64,000 bases of DNA, taken from the sequence record MT322327.1. One strand, 5' to 3'. The notes beneath the pieces are model-generated. The model worked only from the letters and a program-made list of their open reading frames with translations, made no database searches and was not told the origin of the DNA. Position numbers and translations under genes: made by a program. Each line of letters starts with the position of its first letter. The stretch's first letter is position 1. The DNA is from Escherichia phage SSBS18_WS_10_728. Positions 304 through 35,140 of this stretch are shown piece by piece.

Positions 304-307
304 AAAT

Positions 308-400
308 TGGAGGAAGATACCAGACTTGAACTGGTACACCGATTTCTCAGCTACTGGCAGTTTAGCAAACTGCTCCCTTACCTTTTAGGGTTAATCTTCC
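308..400 (-). tRNA. tRNA-Ser (anticodon GCU), class II with long variable arm
   Basis: Acceptor GGAAGAT/ATCTTCC, anticodon stem GCAGT/ACTGC with loop UUGCUAA, T-arm ACCAGTTCAAGTCTGGT, CCA encoded; 93 nt. Confidence 0.55.
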
Positions 401-401
401 A

Positions 402-1136
402 TTATTTCTGTAATGCGTTCTTCATTTCTGGTGTTGCAATAGTGTCAATCACACCAGTTTTACAAGCATCATCAAACCAGTCTGGTAAGATACCTGCTAA
501 GAACCCATTGATATTCGTTTTAAGGTACTCTGCAATAAGGGCAGCTTCTTCTTCAATCATCTGAACAACTTCATCTGCATAAGCTGTAATCTTTGAAATA
601 CCTTCATTAATCTTATTAACAGCTTGGTTAGCTAAATCAGAAATAGTATCAAGACCTTTATCAATAGCATCCTGTAAGTCACTTAATACATCATTAACAC
701 CATCTAGTGTACTGTTAATCATATCCATAGCTTTTTGACCATACTCTGTAGCAACACCCATAATACCACTAAACGGTGTACAGCCAACTTGTTCCCCTGC
801 TGCACCCATAACATTAGAATAGCCTTTTGCTACCTGCATACGTGATGAAAACTCATCAATGGACTTTTGACCATAATCCGTCAGTGTTTTAGTGGTTGAT
901 GTAGTGCTTGTCAGACTCGTTGTAAAGCTGTTAAGCAGAACTGTTGTAAGTCCAGCAGCAACAAGTTTATCCTTTATTGTAGGGTCTGTTACAGAGCTAA
1001 TAGAGCTTACAAGTGATGTAGAGGCAGCTACGGTTCCACCTAGAACTGCTGCACCAGTAATAAGGGGATTAGAAAACCCTCTACCGGTTTTTAAGAGATT
1101 AAAAATCTCCTTACCTTGTTCTGTCATCTCTTTCAT
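402..1136 (-). CDS. hypothetical protein (Thr/Ser-rich)
   Basis: ORF 402..1199; start moved to internal ATG at 1136 (AAAGG RBS) because the 5' end overlaps tRNA-Phe. Confidence 0.45.
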   Translation of the reverse strand: MKEMTEQGKEIFNLLKTGRGFSNPLITGAAVLGGTVAASTSLVSSISSVTDPTIKDKLVAAGLTTVLLNSFTTSLTSTTSTTKTLTDYGQKSIDEFSSRMQVAKGYSNVMGAAGEQVGCTPFSGIMGVATEYGQKAMDMINSTLDGVNDVLSDLQDAIDKGLDTISDLANQAVNKINEGISKITAYADEVVQMIEEEAALIAEYLKTNINGFLAGILPDWFDDACKTGVIDTIATPEMKNALQK

Positions 1137-1152
1137 TAAGCACCTTTGAAAT

Positions 1153-1228
1153 TGGTAGTCCAGTGGGATTTGAACCCTCTTCTCATGTTTTTCAGACACG
1201 CGCTTTAACCATATAAGCTACTTGGACT
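1153..1228 (-). tRNA. tRNA-Phe (anticodon GAA)
   Basis: Acceptor stem 6/7 bp, T-arm GGGTTCAAATCCC, anticodon loop CUGAAAA, CCA encoded. Confidence 0.6.
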
Positions 1229-1234
1229 ATAAAT

Positions 1235-1310
1235 TGGGGTGACCTACGGGATTTGAACCCGTATAGACCATGTTCACAGCATGGGTCATTACCGTTTATG
1301 ATAAGGCCAC
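1235..1310 (-). tRNA. tRNA-His (anticodon GUG)
   Basis: Acceptor GTGGCCT/AGGTCAC, T-arm ACGGGTTCAAATCCCGT, anticodon loop CUGUGAA. Confidence 0.55.
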
Positions 1311-1341
1311 ATTTAAGGACTCTCGTAAGAACCCTTAGAAG

Positions 1342-1417
1342 TGGCAGCGGCATAAGGATTTGAACCTTAATAAGACAGCTTCAGAGACTGCTGCATTGCC
1401 AGTTATGCTATACCGCT
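1342..1417 (-). tRNA. tRNA-Gln (anticodon CUG), tentative
   Basis: D-stem GCAT/ATGC, anticodon stem GCAGT/GCTGT with loop CUCUGAA, T-arm TAAGGTTCAAATCCTTA, CCA encoded. Confidence 0.5.
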
Positions 1418-1422
1418 AAATT

Positions 1423-1501
1423 TGGTACTCCATATCGGATTCGAACCGATACATAACACAGATTTTAAGTCTGGCCTCTCTGCCAATTGGAGTAATGGAG
1501 C
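1423..1501 (-). tRNA. tRNA with Leu-type anticodon UAA but short variable arm (isotype uncertain)
   Basis: T-arm ATCGGTTCGAATCCGAT, CCA encoded, D-loop AATTGGCAGAG shared with tRNA at 2246..2323; anticodon loop CUUAAAA. Confidence 0.4.
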
Positions 1502-1503
1502 AT

Positions 1504-1578
1504 TGGCGGGGGATGTTGGAATTGAACCAACTTCTTCGATTTCAAAGACCGAGGTTTTAACCTTGTAAACTAATCCCC
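1504..1578 (-). tRNA. tRNA-Gln (anticodon UUG), tentative
   Basis: T-arm GTTGGTTCAATTCCAAC, anticodon stem TCGGT/ATCGA with loop CUUUGAA, CCA encoded. Confidence 0.5.
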
Positions 1579-1587
1579 TTTAAATCT

Positions 1588-2145
1588 TTACTTTCTCAGT
1601 GGATGAATAAAGAATGCCAACATAACTCTTTCCCTTGAGAATGCTCTTTCTTCTGGGACAACACTTTTAAGTTTCCAACCAACATAAATTCTCCAGTAGA
1701 ATTGTTTACCAAAGACTTTAATTGATGGGATAAAAGCGAATAACCCCCAAGCATTGCTGTTCCACATTAGGAGATAACCTGTCTGATTATCTTCAGGGTC
1801 AGAGCTTACGTTGATATTACCTTTCCACTTAGTAACATCTTTTACATCTCTTCCTAACACATGGTAAGAGAAGTTATAAGCTTTGTTTCTCCAGAGCCAT
1901 CCAACTCTCTGCAAATAGACACCCAGCTTACCAATCTTTCTAATCTTAGCCCATCTTTTAATGTGACCTTCATCACCATCAATAGGGTTGTCATATGTCT
2001 CCATCCATCTGAATCCAAAAGGTAGATGTCCTTTCTTCTCACTATAGAATGGAACTACAAAAGGTGCTAAGATAACTGCTAAGATTGCTGCCAATGGGTC
2101 TAGCAAAGCTAGGAAAATCCATGAAGCATACTTCAAATATCTCAT
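1588..2145 (-). CDS. hypothetical membrane-anchored protein inside the tRNA cluster
   Basis: 185-aa ORF, hydrophobic N-terminus, AAGAGG RBS 8 nt upstream of ATG. Confidence 0.55.
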   Translation of the reverse strand: MRYLKYASWIFLALLDPLAAILAVILAPFVVPFYSEKKGHLPFGFRWMETYDNPIDGDEGHIKRWAKIRKIGKLGVYLQRVGWLWRNKAYNFSYHVLGRDVKDVTKWKGNINVSSDPEDNQTGYLLMWNSNAWGLFAFIPSIKVFGKQFYWRIYVGWKLKSVVPEERAFSRERVMLAFFIHPLRK

Positions 2146-2164
2146 TTAAATAGCCTCTTTAAAT

Positions 2165-2240
2165 TGGCGCAGGATAAGGGATTCGAACCCCTATTAACAG
2201 CTTCGTAGACTGTTGCTCTATCCATTTGAACTAATCCTGC
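2165..2240 (-). tRNA. tRNA-Arg (anticodon ACG)
   Basis: Acceptor GCAGGAT/ATCCTGC perfect, anticodon stem ACAGT/GCTGT with loop CUACGAA, T-arm GGGGTTCGAATCCCTT. Confidence 0.55.
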
Positions 2241-2245
2241 AAAAT

Positions 2246-2323
2246 TGGTGTTCCAAGACGGATTCGAACCGTCACTAGTACAAGGTTTGAGCTTGCATCC
2301 TCTGCCAATTGGGATACTGGAAC
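2246..2323 (-). tRNA. tRNA with Leu-type anticodon CAA but short variable arm (isotype uncertain)
   Basis: T-arm GACGGTTCGAATCCGTC, anticodon stem GCAAG/CTTGT with loop CUCAAAC, CCA encoded. Confidence 0.4.
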
Positions 2324-2324
2324 A

Positions 2325-2399
2325 TGGTACTCACTAAAGGACTTGAACCTTTTTCTTCATCTTGTAATGGTGATGTTTTACCATATAAACTAAGCGAGT
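2325..2399 (-). tRNA. tRNA-Val (anticodon UAC), tentative
   Basis: D-stem GTTT/AAAC, T-arm AAAGGTTCAAGTCCTTT, anticodon loop AUUACAA. Confidence 0.4.
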
Positions 2400-2494
2400 G
2401 TGGAAGAGGTCTGAAGTTGTGCCGCTAACTCAACTCCGTGGAATTTGTTACGGTCTTCAGTTGACACCAGCGGTCTTTCACTTGACCTCTGAAT

Positions 2495-2571
2495 TGGTGC
2501 TGCTCACAGGACTCGAACCTGCATTTCCATCCTTACAAGGGATGTGTAATAGCCAATTATACGAAAGCAGC
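2495..2571 (-). tRNA. tRNA-Thr (anticodon UGU)
   Basis: Anticodon stem CATCC/GGATG perfect with loop CUUGUAA, T-arm GCAGGTTCGAGTCCTGT, CCA encoded. Confidence 0.6.
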
Positions 2572-2577
2572 ATTGTT

Positions 2578-2652
2578 TGGAGCATCCAGAGGGAATCGAA
2601 CCCTCAACCTCAGTTTGGAAGACTGTAATTTTCCCGTTTAAACTATGGATGC
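2578..2652 (-). tRNA. tRNA-Gly (anticodon UCC)
   Basis: Acceptor GCATCCA/TGGATGC perfect, T-arm GAGGGTTCGATTCCCTC, anticodon loop CUUCCAA. Confidence 0.55.
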
Positions 2653-2658
2653 ACTAAT

Positions 2659-2734
2659 TGGTGGAGTCACTGAGAATTGAACTCAGTTCCCAAGTTTGCA
2701 AAACTCGAATTTTAACCATATAAACTATGACCCC
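2659..2734 (-). tRNA. tRNA-Ala (anticodon UGC)
   Basis: Acceptor GGGGTCA with G3:U70 pair, T-arm CTGAGTTCAATTCTCAG, anticodon loop UUUGCAA. Confidence 0.6.
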
Positions 2735-2740
2735 AATGTT

Positions 2741-2816
2741 TGGTACAGGTGGAGGGAATTGAACCCATCGTCTTACTGATTAAGAGTCAGCCGCATAACC
2801 ATTTTGCTACACCTGC
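2741..2816 (-). tRNA. tRNA-Lys (anticodon CUU), tentative
   Basis: Acceptor GCAGGTG/CACCTGT, anticodon stem GCTGA/TCAGT with loop CUCUUAA, weak T-stem; paralog of tRNA at 4057..4132. Confidence 0.45.
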
Positions 2817-2823
2817 ATTAATT

Positions 2824-2901
2824 TGGTAGGAGACAAGGGATTCGAACCCTCAAACACCAACTTCTAAGGATGGTAGGTTTACCAATTACCGTCAATCTCC
2901 C
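2824..2901 (-). tRNA. tRNA with Leu-type anticodon UAG but short variable arm (isotype uncertain)
   Basis: T-arm GAGGGTTCGAATCCCTT, CCA encoded, anticodon loop CUUAGAA with 4/5-bp stem. Confidence 0.4.
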
Positions 2902-3156
2902 ATTAAATCTTTTTAGAGAACTTCTAAGAACCTAAGCAACAAGGTTCCACAACAAGCTGTAATAACCTTAGAAGCCCTCTAAAAAGACCTAAATAGGTCT
3001 TTACATAGTCTTGTTTAATCCGGTGACTAGAACCTTTGGAGAGCTTGATATTATCTCTTCTCCGTGACACCTACTAGGTGCTTTACTGTGCGTGTACGAC
3101 AATACACGAGGGATAAACCGAAAATGCGAGCAAGCATGACGGTGTAAATCTTATTA

Positions 3157-3246
3157 GGCGGTAAGTAAAGGAGTCGAACCCTCACCGTATCTCTACAGTG
3201 GCAACAGTTTTCAAGACTGTTTGGCTGCCATTAGCCGCTACCTACC
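3157..3246 (-). tRNA. tRNA-Ser (anticodon UGA), class II
   Basis: Acceptor GGTAGGT/ACTTACC, anticodon stem ACAGT/ACTGT perfect with loop CUUGAAA, long variable arm, T-loop TTCGACT; 3' CC encoded. Confidence 0.6.
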
Positions 3247-3259
3247 CCTAATAAGACTT

Positions 3260-3342
3260 TGGCATGGGACGGAGGAGTTGAACCCCTTTGAAACGGTTTT
3301 GGAGGCCGTTGCTCATGCCTTAGAGTCTTAACATCGTCCCAC
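3260..3342 (-). tRNA. tRNA, possibly Trp (anticodon CCA); atypical length
   Basis: Acceptor GTGGGAC/GTCCCAT, T-arm AGGGGTTCAACTCCTCC, CCA encoded, hairpin with loop CUCCAAA; D region ~7 nt too long in my fold. Confidence 0.35.
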
Positions 3343-3484
3343 ACTATAATTCGAAGCTTACCGTATTTTCGCAACACTGTAAAGCCCCTTCTCAGATTAT
3401 TTACATGTTCTGGAAAACATGAGATACAGACCACCTCCTTACACGGAGACCCGATAAGGTCGTCTAAGCAATCTGCTAACTATT

Positions 3485-3561
3485 TGGCACACCCTACAGG
3501 ATTCGAACCTGTAACTCAATGATTAGAAGTCATTTGCTCTGTCCAGTTGAACTAAGGGTGC
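3485..3561 (-). tRNA. tRNA-Arg (anticodon UCU)
   Basis: Anticodon stem AATGA/TCATT perfect with loop CUUCUAA, T-arm ACAGGTTCGAATCCTGT, CCA encoded. Confidence 0.6.
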
Positions 3562-3854
3562 ATTAATCTTTAAAGACTCTCTTAGAAAGCCCTTAAAGAT
3601 GCCCACTTTATTAATCATACCGTGGGCTAGTACGCCAAATTCTTTGATGAGGGATTGGAAGACCTCACTGGTGTTTAGCCTATCAAGCTACTGCCAGAAA
3701 AACATTGTCGTTTGCATTTATTTTAAATTTGCAAAATAGACGCTACGCAACGAAAACTATTCAGAATATGTACAACAAATTTCCCCACATTGTGTTACGT
3801 CTAACGCTCATGTATTGGTGTTTGAATTATACATATTATGAATCATTTTTAGTT

Positions 3855-3883
3855 ACTATAAAGCGGTCACATCTCAATGTCAA
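3855..3883 (-). promoter_or_regulatory. sigma70-like promoter reading leftward into tRNA genes
   Basis: Minus strand: -35 TTGACA, 17-bp spacer, -10 TATAGT. Confidence 0.5.
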
Positions 3884-3898
3884 CAACTTTATTGAAAT

Positions 3899-3974
3899 TG
3901 GTACTGGTAGGTGGAATCGAACCACCGATATTCCCTTATCAGGGGAGTGTTATAACCTTCTTAACTATACCAGC
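3899..3974 (-). tRNA. tRNA-Ile (anticodon GAU)
   Basis: Acceptor GCTGGTA/TACCAGT, T-arm GGTGGTTCGATTCCACC, anticodon loop CUGAUAA. Confidence 0.55.
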
Positions 3975-3975
3975 T

Positions 3976-4052
3976 TGGAGGTTCAGATGGGAATCGAACC
4001 CACATTCATAGGGCTTATGAAACCCCTGCATTACCTTATCTGCGACTGAACC
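3976..4052 (-). tRNA. tRNA-Met (anticodon CAU; elongator or Ile2-type)
   Basis: Acceptor GGTTCAG/CTGAACC perfect, anticodon stem GGGGT/GCCCT with loop UUCAUAA, T-arm GTGGGTTCGATTCCCAT. Confidence 0.55.
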
Positions 4053-4056
4053 ATAT

Positions 4057-4132
4057 TGGTAGAAGTGGAGGGATTCGAACCCATCGCCTGTCAGATTAAA
4101 AGTCTGCCGCATCACCATTCTGCTACACTTCC
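4057..4132 (-). tRNA. tRNA-Lys (anticodon UUU)
   Basis: Acceptor GGAAGTG/CACTTCT, anticodon stem GCAGA/TCTGA with loop CUUUUAA, CCA encoded. Confidence 0.5.
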
Positions 4133-4333
4133 ATTAAATTATCTTTGTAGATAAGCTACCCAGACTTGCTTAAGGTCTGTAGCGATGTGCCTTGTTGGGT
4201 TTAAATCTAGAATTTACCCTTTCACCCTTTGTGGTCGCATACTCACAGGTAAGCTTAATAGCTCACCTACAAAGATAATTACCAGACCGTTGTTTATCAT
4301 CTTAAGTGCTACCATTACACCAACTCGACATCT

Positions 4334-4357
4334 GCCGAGTGAAGGAATCGAACCTTC
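4334..4357 (-). other. orphan tRNA T-arm-like element (possible tRNA remnant)
   Basis: Perfect T-arm GAAGGTTCGATTCCTTC on minus strand but no matching 5' acceptor strand or CCA nearby. Confidence 0.3.
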
Positions 4358-4393
4358 GCCTTTTCTTTACCGGAGAAATAGATTGTTTAAGTT

Positions 4394-4413
4394 TTGCTGT
4401 AAACGGTCTTCTG
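4394..4413. repeat. tRNA-cluster repeat copy A (TTGCTG-N5-GGTCTTCTG)
   Basis: One of four 20-nt copies; CCAGACC partner at 4281 and 4424. Confidence 0.6.
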
Positions 4414-4483
4414 TAAATTTGTTGAGCCAGACCAAGTTTTAAATTTTTTCAAAATTAAATTGGCTTGAAAATATCATACGTGC

Positions 4484-4503
4484 TTGCTGAATTTGGTCTT
4501 CTG
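4484..4503. repeat. tRNA-cluster repeat copy B
   Basis: TTGCTGAATTTGGTCTTCTG; CCAGACC partner at 4424. Confidence 0.6.
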
Positions 4504-4591
4504 CTCCTTTAAAGAACACTCGTAAGAACCCTTTAAGGGAGGGGCTAAAATAGCCCTCTCAAAACATCATCTTGAAATACTTATTATAATT

Positions 4592-4669
4592 TGGCGGTTA
4601 CGAAGGGATTTGAACCCTCATCATCTCCCGTGACAGGGGAGTATTTTAACCAGATTAAACTACATAACC
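4592..4669 (-). tRNA. tRNA-Asp (anticodon GUC)
   Basis: Anticodon stem CTCCC/GGGAG perfect with loop CUGUCAC, T-arm GAGGGTTCAAATCCCTT, CCA encoded. Confidence 0.65.
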
Positions 4670-4675
4670 TTTATT

Positions 4676-4763
4676 TGGTGTGCCGTGTAGGAGTCGAACC
4701 TACCGAGTCTCAATGACAAGGGATTTACAGTCCCCACCGCTACCATCTACGGGATAACGACAC
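4676..4763 (-). tRNA. tRNA-Tyr (anticodon GUA), class II
   Basis: Acceptor GTGTCGT/ACGGCAC, anticodon loop CUGUAAA, long variable arm, T-arm GTAGGTTCGACTCCTAC, CCA encoded; 88 nt. Confidence 0.6.
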
Positions 4764-4772
4764 ATTTAAATT

Positions 4773-4849
4773 TGGCGGTTAGTCAGGGATTCGAACCCTG
4801 TGCCATTCGCTTAACAGGCGACCGCACATACCTTATGTGCTTCCTAACC
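4773..4849 (-). tRNA. tRNA-Asn (anticodon GUU)
   Basis: D-stem GCAC/GTGC, anticodon loop CUGUUAA, T-arm CAGGGTTCGAATCCCTG, CCA encoded. Confidence 0.6.
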
Positions 4850-4900
4850 TTAATACATTGCCAGACCGTGTTTTTTCTTTTATCCGCAAAAAGTATTTTG

Positions 4901-4920
4901 TTGCTGAATACGGTCTTCTG
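4901..4920. repeat. tRNA-cluster repeat copy C
   Basis: TTGCTGAATACGGTCTTCTG, 6 nt from 3' end of tRNA-Met; CCAGACC partner at 4861. Confidence 0.6.
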
Positions 4921-4926
4921 CAAAAT

Positions 4927-5003
4927 TGGAGGCGGGTGCAGGAGTCGAACCTGCCGATACCATGCTAATGAGACATGTGAGACGCCCTTTCTCTATACCC
5001 GCA
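4927..5003 (-). tRNA. tRNA-Met (anticodon CAU), possible initiator
   Basis: Anticodon stem CATGT/GCATG with loop CUCAUUA, T-arm GCAGGTTCGACTCCTGC, unpaired 1:72 position, CCA encoded. Confidence 0.5.
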
Positions 5004-5067
5004 ATTCTTAATGACCAGACCAAATCTCTTCTTTGTCCGATTTACCTTCAGATGAATAAGATTAAGT

Positions 5068-5087
5068 TTGCTGTAATTGGTCTTCTG
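5068..5087. repeat. tRNA-cluster repeat copy D
   Basis: TTGCTGTAATTGGTCTTCTG, 7 nt from 3' end of tRNA-Glu; CCAGACC partner at 5015. Confidence 0.6.
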
Positions 5088-5094
5088 TCAAAAC

Positions 5095-5172
5095 TGGCGT
5101 TCCAGAAGGGATTTGAACCCTCAAATATCCACTTTGAAAGAGTGGTGACTTTACCATTTTGTCCACTGGAAC
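5095..5172 (-). tRNA. tRNA-Glu (anticodon UUC)
   Basis: Anticodon stem CCACT/AGTGG perfect with loop CUUUCAA, T-arm GAGGGTTCAAATCCCTT, CCA encoded. Confidence 0.6.
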
Positions 5173-5179
5173 ATTAATT

Positions 5180-5256
5180 TGGTCTCTGTTGGAGGACTTG
5201 AACCTCCGGCCTTACCGCCCCAAACGGAACGCTCTACCAAGCTGAGCTAAACAGAG
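5180..5256 (-). tRNA. tRNA-Pro (anticodon UGG)
   Basis: Acceptor CTCTGTT/AACAGAG perfect, anticodon loop UUUGGGG, T-arm GGAGGTTCAAGTCCTCC, CCA encoded. Confidence 0.6.
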
Positions 5257-22701: not shown

Positions 22702-22740
22702 TTTTGGATTCTCCAGTTTAGGAAGTGGGCTGGCTTGCCC
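22699..22740 (-). promoter_or_regulatory. conserved leader cassette, divergent copy
   Basis: CATTTTTGGATTCTCCAGTTTAGGAAG then hairpin GGGCTGGCTTGCCC. Confidence 0.4.
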
Positions 22741-22799
22741 GTCTGATGCAAATATTAAATAACCATAGTCAAAGAGTCAATAGGAATTTTAAAAATATT

Positions 22800-23150
22800 T
22801 TTGCAAAAAAAAAAAAAACTGTAATGAAACGGGCGCACGCGACTACCACAAAACAGAACTACAATCAAGAATTATTTTTCAATCCGCTACAAATTTTTCT
22901 GTTGACTTTTATTTTCAGATGTGGTAGCCTTGTGAGAAATGGCGACATCCCCACCTGCACCCACCTACCTGCACAATTCTAAAATGATTTTTCTTGCCCG
23001 ACCTGAGCGGGGTCTGCACGTTTTGAAAATAAAAAAGCTCTTTGGAGATTATCTGCACAGTTTGAAAATGAATTTTCTCTTTGGAGTTCAAAATTTTCTC
23101 TACAGATTTCTCTACAGAACTCTACCTGCACAATTCTAAAATGAAAAAGC
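22800..23150. repeat. intergenic region with 14-nt poly(A) tract and four CTGCAC-N-TTTGAAAATG-like repeats
   Basis: A14 at 22805-22818; repeats at ~22966, ~23016, ~23058, ~23126. Confidence 0.6.
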
Positions 23151-23217
23151 CCTCCTTACCTGAAAAATTTACCAGATAAGAAAGGCTTAGTCTATTGTGA
23201 ATATTATACAGATTTTC

Positions 23218-24003
23218 TTAGTTCTTTGCGCCTAAAAAGGTAACTTCTGGTGAAGAGAAAATTTCCTCAACATTCTCATCAGTTCTTGCATAGATATATG
23301 TGTCTGCATCACTGCCAAATGTTACTGCAATTCTGTGATTGCTCTTCGACAGGTGGGTAACTAGAGCGTTACTTAGAGACATCTTTTCAACCGGAGGGTT
23401 ACTTTGATGTATCTCGCCTTTTCTTCGTCTGAAGAGGGTAACTGCATCATCAGTGAACGTTACTACACCTGCAAAGTATTCTGGTTCACAGTAGTTCTTC
23501 CAACCTGAGCGTAACTTGTGGTACATCTCCCCTTCGTAGACATACAGATACACATCTACACTCTTCATCACCTGATTAATGATAACGGTAACGGCTTGAG
23601 GGTCCAGTCCACCGATACCTGCACCAATCATAGGTAACCCAACTTTCTTCAACTGATTCACTTCACAGTATCTGTTAAACTGTTTCAAAGATGACTCTAA
23701 AGCACTGTATCGAGCATCTTTACCAGTCTTAAGCTGAGTGTAAAGGTTAGCTATACGGCCTTGTTTTAAACGTGCTACAGAGAAATTGCCTAGTAAATTC
23801 TCACAGGGCTTGTGGCCTATTCCACCTGCATACAGATAAACTTCTGTATCAGTCTCATATGCTTTTGGGTAAAGTTTAGAAATCTTGTCAGCGATACCTG
23901 CACCCATTAAGTTCATACAGTTGCAACCGTGACCGATGACGTCAAACTTACCTTTATCAAATGCTGCAAAGATATCACCATTGATAATTTTTACAATACC
24001 CAT
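23218..24003 (-). CDS. macro-domain protein (ADP-ribose binding/hydrolase-like) with C-terminal extension
   Basis: N-terminal motifs NGDIF, VIGHGCNCMNLMGAGIA, IGAGIGGL typical of Macro/Appr-1-p processing domains. Confidence 0.6.
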   Translation of the reverse strand: MGIVKIINGDIFAAFDKGKFDVIGHGCNCMNLMGAGIADKISKLYPKAYETDTEVYLYAGGIGHKPCENLLGNFSVARLKQGRIANLYTQLKTGKDARYSALESSLKQFNRYCEVNQLKKVGLPMIGAGIGGLDPQAVTVIINQVMKSVDVYLYVYEGEMYHKLRSGWKNYCEPEYFAGVVTFTDDAVTLFRRRKGEIHQSNPPVEKMSLSNALVTHLSKSNHRIAVTFGSDADTYIYARTDENVEEIFSSPEVTFLGAKN

Positions 24004-24240
24004 TTAGCATCTCTCCCAAGATTCTTTATCTTCTGAAGGTTTTACACGTTGCCCTTCGTGGTCTACCCAGATACATCCACAACCTTCACAGATTACTGGC
24101 ATTGCATAGCCAGCTTTAAAGTCATCTTCAGTGATAAGACCTTTTAAGTCCCCTGTATCACGTCCGAACATTTCGATAGCACAGTCTTTGCAGAAATCAG
24201 CCATGAATAATTGCCTCTTGAGTGATGATACCTTTACCAC
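24004..24240 (-). CDS. small Cys-rich (zinc-ribbon-like) protein
   Basis: 78-aa ORF with CKDC...CEGCGC motifs; abuts macro-domain gene. Confidence 0.4.
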   Translation of the reverse strand: MVKVSSLKRQLFMADFCKDCAIEMFGRDTGDLKGLITEDDFKAGYAMPVICEGCGCIWVDHEGQRVKPSEDKESWERC

Positions 24241-24430
24241 AGCGACTTTTAAAATCTTCTAATGGTTCAGATATGAAGCCACGTAAACGGTCACTGAATT
24301 TACGTTTTAAACCCTTCTTATAAGTTAACACATCTTCCCCTGCAAACGGAACGACTTCATCTCTCCCTATGAATACTGCTGAACGTACAATCTTGCGGGT
24401 CTTTTTATCTCTGGCTAGTATTACTTTCAT
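24197..24430 (-). CDS. hypothetical protein
   Basis: 77-aa ORF. Confidence 0.4.
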   Translation of the reverse strand: MKVILARDKKTRKIVRSAVFIGRDEVVPFAGEDVLTYKKGLKRKFSDRLRGFISEPLEDFKSRCGKGIITQEAIIHG

Positions 24431-25035: not shown

Positions 25036-25301
25036 TTCCTCGTTTTAAGAACTGCTAAGATTTCTTTAGAATCTGGTAAGAACCATGTGTAGTGATTCTC
25101 TTTGATTTCTGGATGAGTGTCAACCTTTATTTTGAACTCTTTACCAACATGCTTAAGCTGTGCTGTGACACCTTGCATAAAGATATGACACATCACGTTA
25201 TCCATAATGGTTGGTGAGAAATCAACCCGCATATAAGTTTCTTTTGGTCGTGGTAGCAGTAAGTACCCTTCTACATAGAAAGTGTCTTCGCTCTCTGTCA
25301 T
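25032..25301 (-). CDS. hypothetical protein
   Basis: 89-aa ORF. Confidence 0.45.
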   Translation of the reverse strand: MTESEDTFYVEGYLLLPRPKETYMRVDFSPTIMDNVMCHIFMQGVTAQLKHVGKEFKIKVDTHPEIKENHYTWFLPDSKEILAVLKTRK

Positions 25302-25567
25302 TGCTGTTTATTCCCTAATAAAATCATGTCAATAAGGTTATTAGCTTTTATTGTGCACTGATAAAAACCATCACGATAAAACTCAAGGGCTGCTGCCACA
25401 TCACTACCAGTATTACCTTTGACGGTGAATCTTGATTCTTCTTGTGTGTACTTATCACTCTCACTTACTTGGGAGTTTTTGAATGTACTGTTCACTTTGT
25501 TCGTTGAACACCCTGACATAGTTATCAGTAACACAAACATTATAAAACTCTGGCTTAGTTTTTTCAT
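25298..25567 (-). CDS. lipoprotein (lipobox MSGC); candidate o-spanin (Rz1-like)
   Basis: Signal peptide with lipobox Cys; gene overlaps the 3' part of 25461..25808 in another frame. Confidence 0.45.
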   Translation of the reverse strand: MKKLSQSFIMFVLLITMSGCSTNKVNSTFKNSQVSESDKYTQEESRFTVKGNTGSDVAAALEFYRDGFYQCTIKANNLIDMILLGNKQQ

Positions 25568-25808
25568 ATGTTAGTACCTCTTTTGTATGCTTATTCTTAG
25601 CAAGCACATCTTTCAAATCATTTTTGTAATTGGTGCTGAGTGTGGCTAAACCTTCCTGATAAGCATCTTTGGCAACACTTATTAGTTTCTCATTATTTAG
25701 TTCAGTTTCAGCAACTTGGTAGTCTCTGTAAGAGTATCCTCCCCAGACACCTGCTCCAACTAAGAAAACAATTATGAAAGTAGCTTGACAGAACTCTTTA
25801 AATGTCAT
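25461..25808 (-). CDS. N-terminal-TM protein; candidate i-spanin (Rz-like)
   Basis: TM helix FIIVFLVGAGVWGGY then helical domain; overlapping lipoprotein gene. Confidence 0.45.
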   Translation of the reverse strand: MTFKEFCQATFIIVFLVGAGVWGGYSYRDYQVAETELNNEKLISVAKDAYQEGLATLSTNYKNDLKDVLAKNKHTKEVLTYEKTKPEFYNVCVTDNYVRVFNEQSEQYIQKLPSK

Positions 25809-25825
25809 TTAACAATCTCCTGAAA

Positions 25826-25852
25826 TGAAAAAGGCTCCCGAAGGAGCCTGTA
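25826..25852 (-). terminator. rho-independent terminator
   Basis: Minus strand: GGCTCC-TTCG-GGAGCC then TTTTTCATTT. Confidence 0.55.
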
Positions 25853-25860
25853 TCTTAACC

Positions 25861-26325
25861 TTAACCGAGGACTTTAGCAAGGACATTTGCAGCCATCGAA
25901 GAAGCTTTTGCAGCAGCAGCTACCCCAGCTTTAATAGCGTTATCCTTGATAGCAGATACCGTTGCAGCATCAGTAAAGAGATAAGTAGTTGTTTTAGAAC
26001 CACTTGTAAAGGAAAGCATAAGAGCAGTTTCCAGATTGAAAGAGCGATACGGAGCACCTTCTTTAACGATACCTTCAGCACCTAACTCTGAAGCCATACC
26101 CATATCATAGATAGTCATCAGGTTTTCTTTGTGTGCAGTCGTTGAGCCAGCACCTTTGACGTGTTTCTTAACATTAAGAAGAGCACGGTATTCTCGGATG
26201 TTACCATCTGCTTTTACATTGACAGCACGGAAGATTTTACCCTCAAAGTTGCTTTTGATAATGTTACGAACTACTTCAGATTTGTTTGCCGTAACGTCCA
26301 GTGCTACCGTAATGATATTGTTCAT
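25861..26325 (-). CDS. hypothetical protein
   Basis: 154-aa ORF, Ala-rich C-terminus. Confidence 0.5.
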   Translation of the reverse strand: MNNIITVALDVTANKSEVVRNIIKSNFEGKIFRAVNVKADGNIREYRALLNVKKHVKGAGSTTAHKENLMTIYDMGMASELGAEGIVKEGAPYRSFNLETALMLSFTSGSKTTTYLFTDAATVSAIKDNAIKAGVAAAAKASSMAANVLAKVLG

Positions 26326-26335
26326 AAGTTTTCTC

Positions 26336-27031
26336 TCAATGTTTTACTAACATAGTTTTAATGTGCGGAAGGATTCTGTTTACCTTCTGAACATTCTTCT
26401 CTGTATCTTCTATAAAACATACTATATTAAAGTAAGGAAGAATGCAAGACTGAATCATCCTGACTTTCAAACTTTCTGCATTTATAGAGTTAGTTCCAAA
26501 ACCACGCATAAAAAGCATGTAATCGTGCTCTATGTTATGCCTTAAAAACATCTCAGTAGGTATTCTCTGAGATTCACCTCTCGCTGTCAAGAGTCCAATG
26601 GCAGCGTGATTAGCAATTGCATCAATAATACTAAAAACATACGTTGGTTTTGCTCTTACAGAGTCAAGAAGATTAGTGTACTGTGAGAATGACCCATCAG
26701 TCAATTCCGTTGAGCAATCTTCGTGATTAAAATTTGTAAGAACACCATCAATATCTGCTAAGATGAGGTTACCTTTTTCTACAAGGTCTTTATTGACTAT
26801 GACTAAACTGTCACGTCTTACACCTATAGATTGTCCAGTCTCTTTGTCCACAACGTTCACAATTGGTTCTGATGTGTGGAACTCTTCAAGTGAACATACA
26901 ACCTCTCTTGCAGTGTCTTCAAAATCCCTGCACTGTTCTGGAGTCCATATACAGGAATCAAGACCTAACTCATGAGGATGCAAGTCGTAAGCATGACACA
27001 GCACTTCATCAGACTTTCTTAATTTTTTCAT
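26336..27031 (-). CDS. HAD-like phosphatase / 5'-nucleotidase-like protein (tentative)
   Basis: DxDGV-type motif ILADIDGVLT; motif lies ~90 residues in, so assignment is weak. Confidence 0.4.
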   Translation of the reverse strand: MKKLRKSDEVLCHAYDLHPHELGLDSCIWTPEQCRDFEDTAREVVCSLEEFHTSEPIVNVVDKETGQSIGVRRDSLVIVNKDLVEKGNLILADIDGVLTNFNHEDCSTELTDGSFSQYTNLLDSVRAKPTYVFSIIDAIANHAAIGLLTARGESQRIPTEMFLRHNIEHDYMLFMRGFGTNSINAESLKVRMIQSCILPYFNIVCFIEDTEKNVQKVNRILPHIKTMLVKH

Positions 27032-32138: not shown

Positions 32139-33920
32139 TTAAAGCTGCTTGTCAATATTATTTCGAATATCACCAAGAGTTGTGTAGCCGAACTGCTCAG
32201 AGTCGCTAAAGACCAAGCGTAAAGCACAAGCTGGGTGTTCAAGTGCATCTGCAAAGCTTTGGAACCCATAGCCATCTACAGCTTTCAGATTTTCACCATC
32301 CCACATAGGTGCTACACCACCAAAAGCAGACTTCTTAACACCGCTGTCTGTTTTAGGGTCTTTTGCAAGCATAATCTCTTTACCACCAATGCTTGCCAGA
32401 GTTGCTTTAACAGCAAATGCAAAGGTGTCACGAGTCATGTACTGGTAAGTGTAAGAACCTACACCAAACACTACGTTAGAGCTTGCAAAACCCATTTCAT
32501 ACAAACGTTTCAGGATTTCGTTTGCACGTTCCAACGTGATAGAGTCACCATAAATAAGCCCGATATGCTCATCCAGTACTTTAAAGCCTTTAGAGTTGAT
32601 AGTTCCTCCAAAGATATTATACAGTGTCTTGATAGCTCCATCAATCTCCGCTACAGGACGTGTGACAACGTTTGCAGAACCAACCATATAAGCGTTTTTC
32701 AACAGCACTGTATCAGCAACTTCAAAGTCTTCTCTGTCAACAACCATTTCGTAGCCTTCTGACAGTAGCCACCCAGCAATACCATAGTTGATGTTTTCAA
32801 GCTTCATGTTCAGAACAGCATTCAACATTGTGTCGCTGGCTTCCAGCTTGCTTAGGTGTTCGTAATAAGCCTTTTTAGCACACTCTAAGTGGATTGCTTT
32901 ATAGCCTGTGACAATATGTACAGGGTCTCCAGAGTCAGGACGAATTACCAGTTTGCCATCACGTTCCATAATCTCTTTACGGAGTTCTGGGAGTATCACT
33001 GATACAGTTCTCCAGAAGTTATAAGTATCTGAAACAACACTTGCAATACCAGTTGGGTAAGTTTCTGTTAAGAAACGACGGAAGGTTTGTAACTCACCTT
33101 TAAAGCGTCTTTCTTCTTCAATCAACTCATTCCCACCTTCCCAAGCAATGTTTGCACACATGACAGAGTGCTCGGTGGCTGGTACAGAACTACCAATATC
33201 AGAGATTGGGTAGGACTGCCCATAGATGCGTTTAGCTGTATACACAGCAGGGAAGCTATCAGTCCCTTTAAAGCTGGTTAAGTGACCTACAGCGTTAAAT
33301 GCGTCATCAGTAAAGCCGGACATACCACGCATAGCAAAATCATGGCACTGATAAGGTAAATGTAAGTCATTGTCACAAGTAAGGTCAGACCACTTCTTAC
33401 AGATACGTTTGTAGTGCAATGCAATAGTTGCAATGGTACAAGCCTTCCAAATCTCAGCAGAGAAAGCATCTTCCAGATACCCCGCTACCCAATGGAAACC
33501 TGAAACAGTGTTCTGGAAGACAACCATTGGTACACGCATAGGAACAACTGTGCCTTCTTCTACAGCGTATACTTCAACTGGTAGATAACCTAAGTCGTGA
33601 AGTGCTTCCCAATGTTCTCGACCAATAGCATCTTTACCCAGAACACCGTTCATGACTTCTAAGATTTCGTCAATTGCTTCTTTTTTGTCACGTTCAAAGA
33701 AGGTGGCGTTCCAGTGGTCTATCAAGTAATCTTTAACAAAACGTTGAATACCAAAAGCTACTACACCATCAATTGCTAAAGGGCTGTTAAACCATTTATC
33801 ACTACGTGGTGTCAGGTTAAACATCAAGTACTCTGTCGCACTAGGATACTGATAAATATGGCCAGACTTGTAAGCATCCGCGTTTAAACCTGCTGGTACT
33901 GCATAAAGTGATTTAGTCAT
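32139..33920 (-). CDS. nicotinamide phosphoribosyltransferase-like (NAMPT/NadV family; possibly Namat)
   Basis: Motifs VPATEHSVM, VVSDTYN, IRPDSGDP; start set to ATG 33920 with GAGAGA RBS. Confidence 0.75.
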   Translation of the reverse strand: MTKSLYAVPAGLNADAYKSGHIYQYPSATEYLMFNLTPRSDKWFNSPLAIDGVVAFGIQRFVKDYLIDHWNATFFERDKKEAIDEILEVMNGVLGKDAIGREHWEALHDLGYLPVEVYAVEEGTVVPMRVPMVVFQNTVSGFHWVAGYLEDAFSAEIWKACTIATIALHYKRICKKWSDLTCDNDLHLPYQCHDFAMRGMSGFTDDAFNAVGHLTSFKGTDSFPAVYTAKRIYGQSYPISDIGSSVPATEHSVMCANIAWEGGNELIEEERRFKGELQTFRRFLTETYPTGIASVVSDTYNFWRTVSVILPELRKEIMERDGKLVIRPDSGDPVHIVTGYKAIHLECAKKAYYEHLSKLEASDTMLNAVLNMKLENINYGIAGWLLSEGYEMVVDREDFEVADTVLLKNAYMVGSANVVTRPVAEIDGAIKTLYNIFGGTINSKGFKVLDEHIGLIYGDSITLERANEILKRLYEMGFASSNVVFGVGSYTYQYMTRDTFAFAVKATLASIGGKEIMLAKDPKTDSGVKKSAFGGVAPMWDGENLKAVDGYGFQSFADALEHPACALRLVFSDSEQFGYTTLGDIRNNIDKQL

Positions 33921-33966
33921 CTTTTTAATCTCTCTCAAAATGGGGCTTGTAAGCCCCTATAAAGTT

Positions 33967-34848
33967 TCAATCAATGGTTACTACAGTAACTTGTGCATAA
34001 TGTGTTAAGCCACGGTCTTTAGCTTCCCCTAAAGAGTTTGTAGTGTAGATATGGTCAATACCATTGTCAAGTAAGTTTTCAACCCCTTTAGAGAAAATGC
34101 CATGAGTTACATAGAGTTCCACACGTTTTGCACCTGCTTCACGAAGATGTTTAGCTGCCTCTATGAAGGTTCGACCACCATCACAAATATCATCCAGAAT
34201 CATGACGGTTTTATCTGTCAAATCAACATCATCAAGGATTCGCATACCAGTAATTTCACCAGTCTTAAGGTTGCGTACTTTAGACATTGTGATATATGGT
34301 TTATCCACCTCTTTAGCAGTCTCTTCAGTCTTCTTAGCTGCACCTGCATCTGGGGCTACCAAGAAATCAATGCGTGGGTCACTTGCAAAGTGTGCTGCTA
34401 CATCTTTTTGCTTCATGCTCTGAAAGCACTTAAATAAGTTTTCTGCAACATTACTGTGAGGGTCAAGAGCACATACTGCATCAAAACCCATTGCATTAAC
34501 GAGGTTGGAAAAAGCTTTCAGTGCTGCTGAATCACCTTTGAACATATGGCGGTCATATCGAGCATTCGGTAAGAACCCGAAAACAACGGTTTTCATCGCT
34601 GATTTGTATGGAACAAGGCTGTCAACGGCATCCTTAGCCAAAGCTAATGCAAACAGTGTATCTTTATCATATCCCTGCACAGTCAATATAACATTGTCAA
34701 TCTTACCAGCATTACGCTCAGTAAACTTAACAAAATCTTCAGAGAAGTTTCCACCAATTTCTCCAGATGGGAATTGGATGATATTAAATTTTTCTGTGTG
34801 GAAGAATTTCTCTTGTGCGGTGACAACGGCTTCAATAATAGTTTTCAT
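33967..34848 (-). CDS. ribose-phosphate pyrophosphokinase-like (Prs family; possibly ADPR pyrophosphokinase)
   Basis: PRPP-binding loop VMILDDICDGGRT and Prs-like N-terminal half; start set to ATG 34848. Confidence 0.7.
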   Translation of the reverse strand: MKTIIEAVVTAQEKFFHTEKFNIIQFPSGEIGGNFSEDFVKFTERNAGKIDNVILTVQGYDKDTLFALALAKDAVDSLVPYKSAMKTVVFGFLPNARYDRHMFKGDSAALKAFSNLVNAMGFDAVCALDPHSNVAENLFKCFQSMKQKDVAAHFASDPRIDFLVAPDAGAAKKTEETAKEVDKPYITMSKVRNLKTGEITGMRILDDVDLTDKTVMILDDICDGGRTFIEAAKHLREAGAKRVELYVTHGIFSKGVENLLDNGIDHIYTTNSLGEAKDRGLTHYAQVTVVTID

Positions 34849-34861
34849 AGCTCTCTCTCTC

Positions 34862-35140
34862 TTAATCAAAAGTTACGTTTGTTACTGCCATTGCAGATTT
34901 GCATTTTGCAGGGTCTACAACGTGATAAAGTACACTACAGTTGCCTGTGCTGTCTGGTACAGGTTTAACCCATTGTTGCTTGACAGTTGGTTCTCCTAAG
35001 TCTTTGTAAGAGCCATCTGTAAAATTGTTTACCATCTCAAGTGCAATTGGTTCTGGAACATGACCACGAATCATATACATCTCACAACCATTTCCAGCAT
35101 CACTTATTAGGTCTTTTATTTCCCAATCTGCTTTAGCCAT
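34862..35140 (-). CDS. hypothetical protein
   Basis: ORF 34862..35167; start probably ATG 35140. Confidence 0.4.
   Translation of the reverse strand: MAKADWEIKDLISDAGNGCEMYMIRGHVPEPIALEMVNNFTDGSYKDLGEPTVKQQWVKPVPDSTGNCSVLYHVVDPAKCKSAMAVTNVTFD

What the first reader, a model, noticed from the sequence alone, without database searches (positions are those of the whole stretch)
23218..24240. Phage macro-domain protein with adjacent Cys-rich partner
The 261-aa protein carries macro-domain signature blocks (NGDIF, GHGCNCMNLMGAGIA, IGAGIGGL) plus a ~100-aa C-terminal extension, and it abuts a small Cys-rich ORF. Macro domains bind or hydrolyse ADP-ribose derivatives, so a phage copy is a candidate counter-defence factor (reversal of ADP-ribosylation or removal of ADP-ribose-derived signals). 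It sits at the head of an operon directly upstream of the small-gene array.
Basis: partly seen in the sequence, partly recalled or inferred. Interest (0 to 1): 0.7.

Follow-up and report, generated by a model that had tools for sequence, protein, structure and literature searches.

The report
Felix-like phage macro-domain counter-defence enzyme
This gene of a Felix O1-like coliphage encodes an ADP-ribose-processing "macro" enzyme whose relatives in other phages were recently shown to disarm bacterial immunity; its only unexplained part is a fast-evolving extra domain of unknown fold.

Summary
A 261-aa ORF on the minus strand (23218-24003) is a real macro-domain protein: Pfam scores above threshold, and the predicted fold matches TARG1, DarG and Poa1p at TM about 0.8. 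It has a roughly 100-aa C-terminal domain and abuts a 66-aa four-cysteine ORF. The window is a Felixounavirus, 95% identical at this protein to Bas63_0095.

The macro domain belongs to a phage Poa1p-like clade with two characterised members. T4 Tk.4/AdfM counters DarTG2. Vibrio phage Gary Adpp is an ADPR-1''-phosphate phosphatase that feeds the NAD+-rebuilding pathway NARP1 and counters aRES. The His and Asn mutated in the published Adpp loss-of-function constructs are invariant here. The window also carries the validated NARP1 genes 8 kb upstream. Counter-defence is therefore well supported by homology, but sequence cannot choose between the two substrates.

Two claims fail. The gene is the last, not the first, of its transcription unit. 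The Cys-rich ORF is a widespread stand-alone zinc-ribbon protein, also in T5, rV5-like and Pseudomonas phages, not a dedicated partner.

The new element is the C-terminal domain. [quoted passage not shown]

The parts
23218..24003 (-). Macro-domain protein gene (261 aa plus stop); orthologue of Bas63_0095 'putative phosphatase'
   Evidence: ORF. Pfam Macro above cut-off. PHROG 335 E=1e-110. 95% aa identity to Bas63_0095.
23533..24003 (-). Macro domain proper (residues 1-157), Poa1p-like/Tk.4/Adpp clade. Invariant residues include H25, N28, M33-G34-A35-G36, the N86-L-Y-T-Q90 motif, and P124, I126 and G127-A-G-I130.
   Evidence: Alignments. AF2 model plus Foldseek: TARG1 TMt 0.81, DarG 0.77-0.80, Poa1p 0.70-0.73. 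Profile against PDB: TARG1 2.5e-11, DarG 4.6e-9, Poa1p 7e-5. dN/dS 0.016-0.037.
23221..23532 (-). Linker helix (residues 158-167) plus orphan C-terminal domain (about 170-261; six beta-strands and one helix); lineage-restricted and fast-evolving
24004..24204 (-). 66-aa four-cysteine (CxxC...CxxC) zinc-ribbon-like ORF, PHROG 2210. Its stop codon abuts the macro start codon. It is a widespread stand-alone phage protein, not a dedicated partner.
24011..24016 (-). GGAGAG Shine-Dalgarno-like sequence, 7 nt upstream of the macro ATG and inside the end of the Cys-rich ORF
   Evidence: Read directly from the sequence.
23147..23188 (-). Terminator-like hairpin (17-pair stem then T-run), 30 nt downstream of the macro stop codon; marks the end of the unit
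33967..34848 (-). Context: Adps (NARP1 enzyme 1), 96% identical to Bas63_0079
   Evidence: Bas63 NARP1 was shown experimentally in bioRxiv 10.1101/2024.02.11.579819.
32139..33920 (-). Context: Namat (NARP1 enzyme 2), 97% identical to Bas63_0080

Best explanation
The gene encodes an active ADP-ribose hydrolase of the phage Poa1p-like macro clade, the clade that contains T4 Tk.4/AdfM and the NARP1-associated Adpp enzymes. It binds ADP-ribose in the canonical cleft and cleaves whatever is attached to the C1'' of the distal ribose. It serves the phage as a counter-defence enzyme. Two jobs are documented for this clade, and sequence cannot separate them. (a) Adpp-like: dephosphorylate ADPR-1''-phosphate, the product of RES-type NAD+ phosphorylases (aRES), to ADPR. 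The phage's own Adps and Namat (NARP1, 8 kb upstream on the same strand) then rebuild ADPR into NAD+. (b) AdfM-like: strip ADP-ribose from thymidines that DarT2 places on phage ssDNA. I lean slightly to (a) in this NARP1-carrying phage (about 0.4) over (b) (about 0.35). One enzyme may do both. The 100-aa C-terminal domain is not needed for catalysis, because characterised homologues lack it. It is inferred to be a fast-evolving protein-interaction or targeting module. What is shown: the fold, clade membership, conserved active-site residues, purifying selection and the presence of NARP1. What is inferred: the substrate, the in vivo role and the CTD function.
For: Macro fold and family. Clade membership: 35% identity and E=1e-23 to T4 Tk.4. 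27-36% identity and E from 1e-13 to 1e-21 to seven of the nine NARP1-linked Adpps compared (RYC is weaker, 5.7e-6). DarG scores much lower at 34-43 bits. In a rough unbootstrapped NJ tree, this protein's clade is sister to T4 Tk.4 among most of the Adpps, while two Adpps (RYC, PH357) group with DarG. H24A and N27A constructs of Gary Adpp are listed in the preprint's Table S4, and the legend of Fig. 3B states that mutations in Adpp abolish anti-aRES activity. These residues align with H25 and N28, which are invariant in all 17 family members. ADP-ribose-binding loops are invariant. Macro-domain dN/dS is 0.02-0.04. T4 tk.4 knockout sensitises T4 to DarTG2. Purified Gary Adpp converts ADPR-1P to ADPR and is required with NARP1 to beat aRES. 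The window encodes Adps and Namat that are 96-97% identical to the experimentally validated Bas63 pair. A Namat-like gene lies upstream of the macro+CTD gene in the same order in two deeply divergent relatives. aRES and DarTG2 both occur in E. coli.
Against: No experiment exists on this protein or on Bas63_0095. The catalytic Lys of DarG (K80) and TARG1 (K84) is replaced by an invariant Gln (Q90), so a DarG-type mechanism cannot be assumed. T4 Tk.4 has the same Gln. The gene is 15 genes and about 8 kb from NARP1, not inside the operon as in the described NARP1-AP systems. The co-occurrence with NARP1 may only reflect conserved genome order in one lineage. The gene is co-directional and tightly packed with spanin genes, so early expression is not established. 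Rapid allelic turnover is unusual for a purely metabolic enzyme.
Confidence: 0.7

Rival explanations
1. Purely AdfM-like. The enzyme acts only on DNA, removing DarT2-made ADP-ribosyl-thymidine, and NARP1 in the genome is a coincidence. The C-terminal domain helps by binding ssDNA or the DarT2 toxin, paralleling the two-domain logic of DarG.
For: T4 Tk.4 is the single best characterised hit (80.9 bits; E=1e-23) and is sister in the NJ tree. The T4 tk.4 knockout is DarTG2-sensitive. To my knowledge T4 has no NARP1, so the clade has a NARP1-independent role. Fast CTD evolution and allelic replacement fit a protein-level arms race. The PADLOC DarG model matches at E=1.2e-12.
Against: The margin over Adpps is trivial (80.9 against 75.5 bits). 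T4 Tk.4 is as close to Adpp phiAbaA1 (83.6 bits) as to this protein. The catalytic Lys of DarG is absent. The CTD has no consistent charge, with net charge from -5 to +4, so neither a DNA-binding nor a DNA-mimic signature is seen. The CTD is not homologous to the DarG C-terminal domain.
Confidence: 0.35
2. Housekeeping RNA-repair accessory. The enzyme clears ADP-ribose-1''-phosphate or Appr>p by-products of tRNA repair together with the nearby polynucleotide kinase, like yeast Poa1p.
For: Poa1p-like fold and motifs. A PNK gene lies 2.3 kb upstream on the same strand. The PNKP-to-macro order is conserved in distant relatives. GenBank annotations read 'phosphatase'.
Against: No RNA ligase, Tpt1/KptA, 2H phosphoesterase or NADAR is annotated anywhere in Bas63. 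By established knowledge, T4-type PNK/ligase repair produces no 2'-phosphate and hence no ADPR-1''-P. Rapid allelic turnover is not expected of a housekeeping enzyme.
Confidence: 0.07
3. Hydrolase or sponge for ADP-ribose-derived immune signals such as Thoeris cADPR isomers or His-ADPR, or eraser of protein or RNA ADP-ribosylation by systems such as CmdTAC.
For: Macro domains are versatile on C1''/C2''-linked ADPR derivatives, and such roles have been predicted for phage macros (PMC9503650). Other NARP1-linked enzymes (RyDEP) do convert cADPR signals to ADPR.
Against: No member of this clade has been shown to do this. No contextual link was found.
Confidence: 0.08

Closest known systems
T4 Tk.4 = AdfM (anti-DarT factor, macrodomain; bioRxiv 10.1101/2025.11.20.689424)
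   Same: Best characterised sequence relative: 35% identity, E=1e-23. Same motifs: HGCNC, MG[AS]G[IV]A, NLYTQ and P-x-IGAGIG. Same Gln at the DarG-Lys position. Encoded by a lytic coliphage with myovirus morphology.
   Different: T4 Tk.4 is a 155-aa single domain; this protein carries a 100-aa C-terminal domain. The gene neighbourhood differs (vs/tk region). The T4 gene downstream of tk.4 (70 aa) is unrelated to the CTD. To my knowledge T4 lacks NARP1.
Adpp of NARP1-AP (Vibrio phage Gary KNV71_gp137 and NARP1-linked macro proteins; bioRxiv 10.64898/2026.01.28.702374)
   Same: Same Poa1p-like phage macro clade: 27-36% identity and E from 1e-13 to 1e-21 to most of the Adpps compared. The mutated residues H24 and N27 correspond to H25 and N28. 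The phage genome encodes NARP1.
   Different: Adpp genes sit within two genes of Adps/Namat; this one is 15 genes downstream. Adpps are 150-170 aa with no CTD.
Yeast Poa1p, ADP-ribose-1''-phosphate phosphatase (PDB 6LFQ)
   Same: Fold match with target TM 0.70-0.73. Shared H-x-C-N-C...G-x-G-I-A block; Poa1p H23 corresponds to H25.
   Different: Poa1p S30 and F152 are not conserved (L32 and G131 here). They are also not conserved in the validated phage Adpp. Poa1p works in eukaryotic tRNA splicing.
DarG2 antitoxin macrodomain (PDB 5M31, 5M3I) and chimallivirus AdfM (PMC13309987)
   Same: Macro fold with TM 0.77-0.80. DarG N22 corresponds to N28. DarG models match at about 1e-12. A two-domain layout is also seen in DarG.
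   Different: Catalytic K80 (K78 in PhiKZ AdfM) is Gln here. The score is 45 bits against the NCBIfam DarG cut-off of 250. The C-terminal domains are unrelated. No DarT gene is adjacent.
Human TARG1/OARD1 (PDB 4J5R)
   Same: Top structural hit (E=1.7e-9, TMt 0.81) and top profile hit (2.5e-11).
   Different: TARG1 catalytic K84 aligns with Q90. Sequence identity is 24%.

Membership tests
Macro domain superfamily (Pfam PF01661) | Sequence match above the curated gathering score | tested here: met
   32 bits against a cut-off of 22, E=1.3e-7, residues 25-141.
Macro domain superfamily (Pfam PF01661) | Three-layer alpha/beta/alpha macro fold | tested here: met
   AF2 model pLDDT 86. Foldseek against TARG1, DarG, Poa1p and viral Mac1 gives E from 1e-9 to 1e-7 and TMt 0.66-0.81.
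Macro domain superfamily (Pfam PF01661) | Gly-rich ADP-ribose-binding loops (GxG after strand 2; second G-x-G loop) | tested here: met
   M33-G-A-G-I-A38 and I126-G-A-G-I-G-G132 are invariant or nearly invariant in 17 homologues.
Macro domain superfamily (Pfam PF01661) | Binds or hydrolyses ADP-ribose derivatives | not testable with these tools
   Needs biochemistry.
Phage Poa1p-like macro clade (T4 Tk.4/AdfM plus NARP1-linked Adpp) | Closer to Tk.4 and most Adpps than to DarG in sequence | tested here: met
   52-81 bits to Tk.4 and eight of nine Adpps, against 34-43 bits to DarG. The exception, Adpp RYC, scores 33.5 bits and groups with DarG in the rough NJ tree.
Phage Poa1p-like macro clade (T4 Tk.4/AdfM plus NARP1-linked Adpp) | Active-site His and Asn (Gary Adpp H24 and N27; these mutant constructs are listed, and Adpp mutations are reported to abolish function) | tested here: met
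   H25 and N28 align with H24 and N27 and are invariant.
Phage Poa1p-like macro clade (T4 Tk.4/AdfM plus NARP1-linked Adpp) | Q-ending motif (N-x-Y-[TG]-Q in most members) in place of the DarG/TARG1 catalytic Lys | tested here: met
   NLYTQ is invariant. The same Gln is present in T4 Tk.4 and in all nine Adpps aligned; RYC and PH357 have His instead of Tyr in the motif.
Adpp / NARP1-AP pathway | Genome encodes Adps and Namat (NARP1) | tested here: met
   96% and 97% identity to Bas63_0079 and Bas63_0080.
Adpp / NARP1-AP pathway | Macro gene located inside the NARP1 operon or within two genes of it | tested here: not met
   15 genes and about 8 kb downstream on the same strand.
Adpp / NARP1-AP pathway | ADPR-1''-phosphate phosphatase activity; needed to overcome aRES | not testable with these tools
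   Needs an enzyme assay and plaque assays.
AdfM (anti-DarTG2) | Protects the phage from DarTG2; removes ADP-ribose from thymidine in ssDNA | not testable with these tools
   Only the homology to T4 Tk.4 is available.
DarG antitoxin (type II TA) | Full-length match to the DarG equivalog model | tested here: not met
   45 bits against a cut-off of 250; only model positions 12-153 of 338 match. PADLOC DarG matches positions 14-146 of 329 only.
DarG antitoxin (type II TA) | Catalytic lysine (Taq/Mtb DarG K80) | tested here: not met
   K80 aligns with Q90; DarG sequences were verified against PDB.
DarG antitoxin (type II TA) | Adjacent DarT toxin gene | tested here: not met
   The neighbours are the 66-aa zinc-ribbon ORF and a terminator.
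   YmdB-type chains score only E=0.014-0.1 in the profile search. The top hits are TARG1, DarG and Poa1p.

The most novel reading that the evidence does not exclude
The protein is a two-module counter-defence factor that converged on the logic of DarG. The conserved macro domain erases the ADP-ribose adduct. The orphan, rapidly diversifying C-terminal domain directly binds and blocks the host enzyme that makes the adduct, such as a DarT2- or RES-type toxin, or tethers the macro domain to the phage's Adps/Namat. The divergent alleles that replace each other at this locus in Felixounaviruses would then track different host toxin variants.
Probability: 0.15. Interest if true: 0.7.

Novelty: new variant of a known kind. 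Interest (0 to 1): 0.45.

Why it matters
Phage macro domains have only just been tied to function: AdfM against DarTG2 and Adpp against aRES, both reported in 2025-2026. This protein lies between the two characterised examples in sequence. It sits in Bas63-type phages, which are genetically tractable and are where NARP1 was discovered. It is therefore a ready test of whether one macro enzyme covers both DNA de-ADP-ribosylation and ADPR-1''-phosphate recycling. It also tests whether NARP1 phages without an operon-embedded macro gene are already 'NARP1-AP' through a distal gene. If they are, the published figure of 15% would be an underestimate. The lineage-specific C-terminal domain and the allelic turnover point to an unexplored protein-level interaction. 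For phage therapy, this gene may influence the host range of Felixounaviruses, which are widely used against E. coli and Salmonella.

Tried and rejected
- **Cys-rich ORF as a dedicated partner: rejected.** tblastn finds it in 835 phage records at 48-75% identity in T5, Vequintavirus and PaMx35, none with a neighbouring macro gene. The distant macro+CTD loci L005 and L006 have unrelated upstream genes. L003 has only a weakly similar four-cysteine ORF, at 31% identity and 21%.
- **CTD elsewhere in sequence space: not found.** phmmer against 1.84 billion representatives gave only 2 hits from the same family.
- **CTD as a fused copy of the T4 downstream gene: rejected.** hhalign probability was 0.1%.
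- **CTD as a DNA binder or DNA mimic, judged by charge: no consistent signal.** Net charge ranges from -5 to +4.
- **DarG membership: rejected**.
- **RNA element in the 515-bp spacer: none found.** No Rfam match came near any threshold.
- **Literature searches that returned nothing usable.** Searches for Felixounavirus or Bas63 with DarTG, and for Felix O1 with macro domain, gave no useful result.
- **First blastn attempt failed.** The locus files were packed several records per file. It was repeated successfully.
Full report
**What is there**

The finding's coordinates cover two abutting genes on the minus strand. The first is a 261-aa ORF at 23218-24003. The second is a small Cys-rich ORF that ends at 24004.

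The stop codon of the small ORF (TAA, 24006-24004) directly precedes the macro ATG (24003). A GGAGAG Shine-Dalgarno-like sequence lies 7 nt upstream of that ATG. The small ORF most likely starts at the ATG at 24204, giving 66 aa beginning MADFCKDC. That start overlaps the upstream ORF by 8 nt. It agrees with the PHROG 2210 profile, which covers residues 13-78 of the 78-aa GTG form, and with the 201-nt gene annotated in relatives.

**Origin**

The region is 93-97% identical in nucleotide sequence to more than 200 Escherichia, Salmonella and Shigella Felixounavirus genomes. The macro protein is 95% identical to Bas63_0095 of phage JohannRWettstein, annotated 'putative phosphatase'. Other GenBank records call it 'macro domain-containing protein', 'O-acetyl-ADP-ribose deacetylase' or 'Poa1p_like'. 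The gene is therefore already recognised as a macro-domain gene in public annotation.

**Position in the transcription unit**

All genes in this part of the window run on the minus strand.

- A terminator-like hairpin at 25849-25832 precedes a string of eight overlapping or abutting genes from 25808 down to 23218. These are i-spanin, o-spanin, four small ORFs, the Cys-rich ORF and the macro gene.
- Thirty nucleotides after the macro stop codon lies a 17-pair hairpin followed by a T-run (23188-23147).
- A 515-bp spacer with a repeated motif comes next, and then the array of small genes.

The macro gene is thus the tail, not the head, of its unit.

**The macro domain is real and looks active**

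- Pfam Macro scores 32 bits against a cut-off of 22.
- A profile of 17 homologues hits PDB sequences of TARG1 (2.5e-11), M. tuberculosis DarG (4.6e-9), T. aquaticus DarG (2.3e-7) and yeast Poa1p (7e-5).
- The AlphaFold2 model has pLDDT 86.3 and pTM 0.86. Its Foldseek hits are TARG1 (E=1.7e-9, TMt 0.81), DarG (TMt 0.77-0.80), Poa1p and viral Mac1 domains.
- The ADP-ribose-binding loops and a set of polar residues are invariant across homologues as low as 32-36% identical overall (macro domain 39-46%): H25, N28, N31 and the N86-L-Y-T-Q90 motif.
- Nei-Gojobori dN/dS among four close alleles is 0.016-0.037 for residues 1-157.

**Which macro family**

It is not DarG.

- The NCBIfam DarG equivalog scores 45 bits against a cut-off of 250, and only the macro part matches.
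- No DarT gene is adjacent.
- The catalytic lysine, DarG K80 or TARG1 K84, aligns with the invariant Q90. The DarG sequences used were verified against PDB.
- DarG N22 is conserved as N28.

The protein belongs instead to a phage clade that shares H-[GQ]-[CA]-N-C, N-x-Y-[TG]-Q and P-x-I-G-[AC]-G. BLASTP gives these scores:

| Comparator | Bits | Identity |
|---|---|---|
| T4 Tk.4 | 80.9 | 34% |
| Adpp JG004 | 75.5 | 30% |
| Adpp VCM | 70.5 | 32% |
| Adpp phiPsa374 | 67.0 | 36% |
| Adpp Gary | 52.4 | 27% |
| DarG (Taq, Mtb) | 34-43 | 24-26% |

T4 Tk.4 is itself as close to Adpp phiAbaA1 (83.6 bits) as to this protein. A rough neighbour-joining tree, without bootstrap support, places this protein's clade as sister to T4 Tk.4. 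Seven of the nine NARP1-linked Adpps branch around that group. The other two, RYC and PH357, group with DarG.

**What is known about that clade**

Two 2025-2026 reports give it function.

1. *T4 tk.4.* This was the single HIDEN-SEQ hit on a DarTG2 host. A clean knockout sensitises T4 to DarTG2, and the gene was named adfM (bioRxiv 10.1101/2025.11.20.689424). A separate chimallivirus AdfM, which keeps the DarG-type Lys, removes DarT2 ADP-ribose from DNA in vitro (PMC13309987).
2. *NARP1-linked macro proteins.* Osterman et al. showed that RES-domain defence proteins (aRES) cleave NAD+ to nicotinamide and ADPR-1''-phosphate, which NARP1 cannot use. They report that 15% of NARP1 phages carry a Poa1p-like macro protein (Adpp) within the operon. 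Purified Vibrio phage Gary Adpp converts ADPR-1P to ADPR. Adpp is required with NARP1 to overcome aRES (bioRxiv 10.64898/2026.01.28.702374).

The preprint's Table S4 lists Adpp H24A and N27A constructs, and the legend of its Fig. 3B states that mutations in Adpp abolish anti-defence. These two residues align with H25 and N28 here.

**Genomic context that bears on the choice**

- The window encodes Adps (33967-34848) and Namat (32139-33920). They are 96% and 97% identical to Bas63_0079 and Bas63_0080. That is the gene pair in which NARP1 was discovered and shown to protect Bas63 from SIR2-HerA (bioRxiv 10.1101/2024.02.11.579819).
- The macro gene lies 15 genes and about 8 kb downstream on the same strand. 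It is therefore outside the 'within two genes' criterion that Osterman et al. used.
- Two deeply divergent metagenomic relatives, whose macro domains are 39-42% identical to this one, keep the same order: Namat-like gene, rIIA, rIIB, PNKP and then macro+CTD. This may be inherited synteny rather than functional linkage.
- No RNA ligase, Tpt1/KptA, NADAR or ADP-ribosyltransferase is annotated in Bas63. That weakens an RNA-repair reading despite the nearby PNK.

**The C-terminal domain**

Residues 158-167 form a helix. Residues about 179-249 form six beta-strands and a helix, and the full-length and CTD-only models agree on this layout.

- *Still one conserved domain.* Profiles of the Felix-type and the more distant CTDs align with 96.4% probability, E=1.3e-9.
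- *Faster evolution than the macro domain.* Macro against CTD identities are 80% against 53%, 52% against 20%, and about 41% against 11-18%. CTD dN/dS is 0.18-0.49, roughly 5-30 times that of the macro domain across the six pairwise comparisons.
- *No consistent charge.* Net charge ranges from -5 to +4.

Characterised homologues (T4 Tk.4 and the Adpps) lack the CTD. It is therefore accessory to catalysis.

**Allelic replacement**

A Felixounavirus contig (L004) is 95% identical in nucleotide sequence to the window from 30286 down through the Cys-rich ORF. Similarity is lost inside the macro gene, from about 23861 to 23165, and resumes in the spacer. Its 259-aa allele is also found in pSJ21, and the same partial-similarity pattern is seen in finno, phiWec174 and VpaE1_ev035. 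That allele is 52% identical in the macro domain and 20% in the CTD, while the adjacent Cys-rich protein is 98% identical. This turnover fits a gene engaged in a host-phage arms race.

**The Cys-rich ORF**

It has four invariant cysteines, C5, C8, C39 and C42, a zinc-ribbon-like pattern. It occurs in 835 phage records. These include T5 ORF059, Vequintavirus bas56_0041 and Pseudomonas phage PaMx35 ORF35, none of which has an adjacent macro gene. Two distant macro+CTD loci have unrelated upstream genes. The adjacency is therefore lineage synteny, and possibly translational coupling, but not a dedicated partnership. Its function remains unknown.

**Conclusion**

The protein is an active-looking member of the phage Poa1p-like macro clade. 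It most likely acts as a counter-defence ADP-ribose C1''-hydrolase (confidence 0.7).

Of the two documented roles, I rank NARP1-feeding ADPR-1''-P phosphatase at about 0.4. The phage carries validated NARP1, and the His and Asn are conserved. I rank DarT2-adduct removal from DNA at about 0.35. It is the nearest characterised homologue and the gene evolves as an arms-race gene would. The two roles are not exclusive.

The substrate, the expression timing and the CTD function are all inferred. The finding is a known kind of gene, already annotated as a macro or phosphatase gene, with one new feature: an orphan, fast-evolving C-terminal domain at a locus that undergoes allelic replacement.

Noticed in passing
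window 24004-24204 (-): The 66-aa four-cysteine protein (motif MADFCKxC...GDLxGLITE...VICEGCG..VDHEG) is unusually well conserved across unrelated phage families. It is 58-75% identical in T5 (ORF059) and rV5-like phages and about 50% in Pseudomonas phage PaMx35. It has no Pfam or PDB relative. It may bind a conserved host target.
   Followed up: partly
window 22702-23217: The 515-bp ORF-poor spacer after the macro terminator holds 3-4 direct copies of CTGCACARTTYKAAAATGA (22969, 23053, 23126, plus a degenerate copy at 23013). Only 0.02 copies are expected by chance, and the motif occurs nowhere else in the window. No Rfam match was found. On the minus strand each copy contains a TAGAAT-like -10 element, so these may be tandem promoters or regulator sites for the small-gene array.
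   Followed up: partly
window 32139-34869 (-): The window carries the NARP1 NAD+-reconstitution genes. Adps and Namat are 96-97% identical to the experimentally characterised Bas63_0079 and Bas63_0080.
   Followed up: yes
window about 23165-23861; loci L004 and L013: The macro gene is an allelic-replacement hot spot within Felixounavirus. A 259-aa allele (52% identity in the macro domain, 20% in the CTD) sits between flanks that are about 95% identical, with the upstream breakpoint inside the 5' end of the macro gene.
   Followed up: yes
window 25298-27031 (-): A PNK gene, a 154-aa ORF, a terminator-like hairpin (25849-25832) and then overlapping i-spanin and o-spanin genes. From my own knowledge, this neighbourhood recalls the T4 pseT / pseT.2 / pseT.3 arrangement. 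The macro gene shares a tightly packed gene string with the spanins, so its expression timing is unclear.
   Followed up: no
window 24197-24430 (-): The 77-aa ORF two genes upstream of the macro gene has a weak sub-threshold match to the C-terminus of the Gabija anti-defence protein Gad1 (E=0.024, 14.6 bits against a cut-off of 27). This is probably chance.
   Followed up: no
window 228-5256 (-): A cluster of 26 tRNA genes, typical of Felix O1-like phages.
   Followed up: no
loci L014 and L015 (metagenomic contigs): Distant Ounavirinae-like phages keep the gene order Namat-like, rIIA, rIIB, Dam methylase, PNKP and then macro+CTD, although the macro domains are only 39-42% identical to the window protein (32-33% over the full length).
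   Followed up: partly
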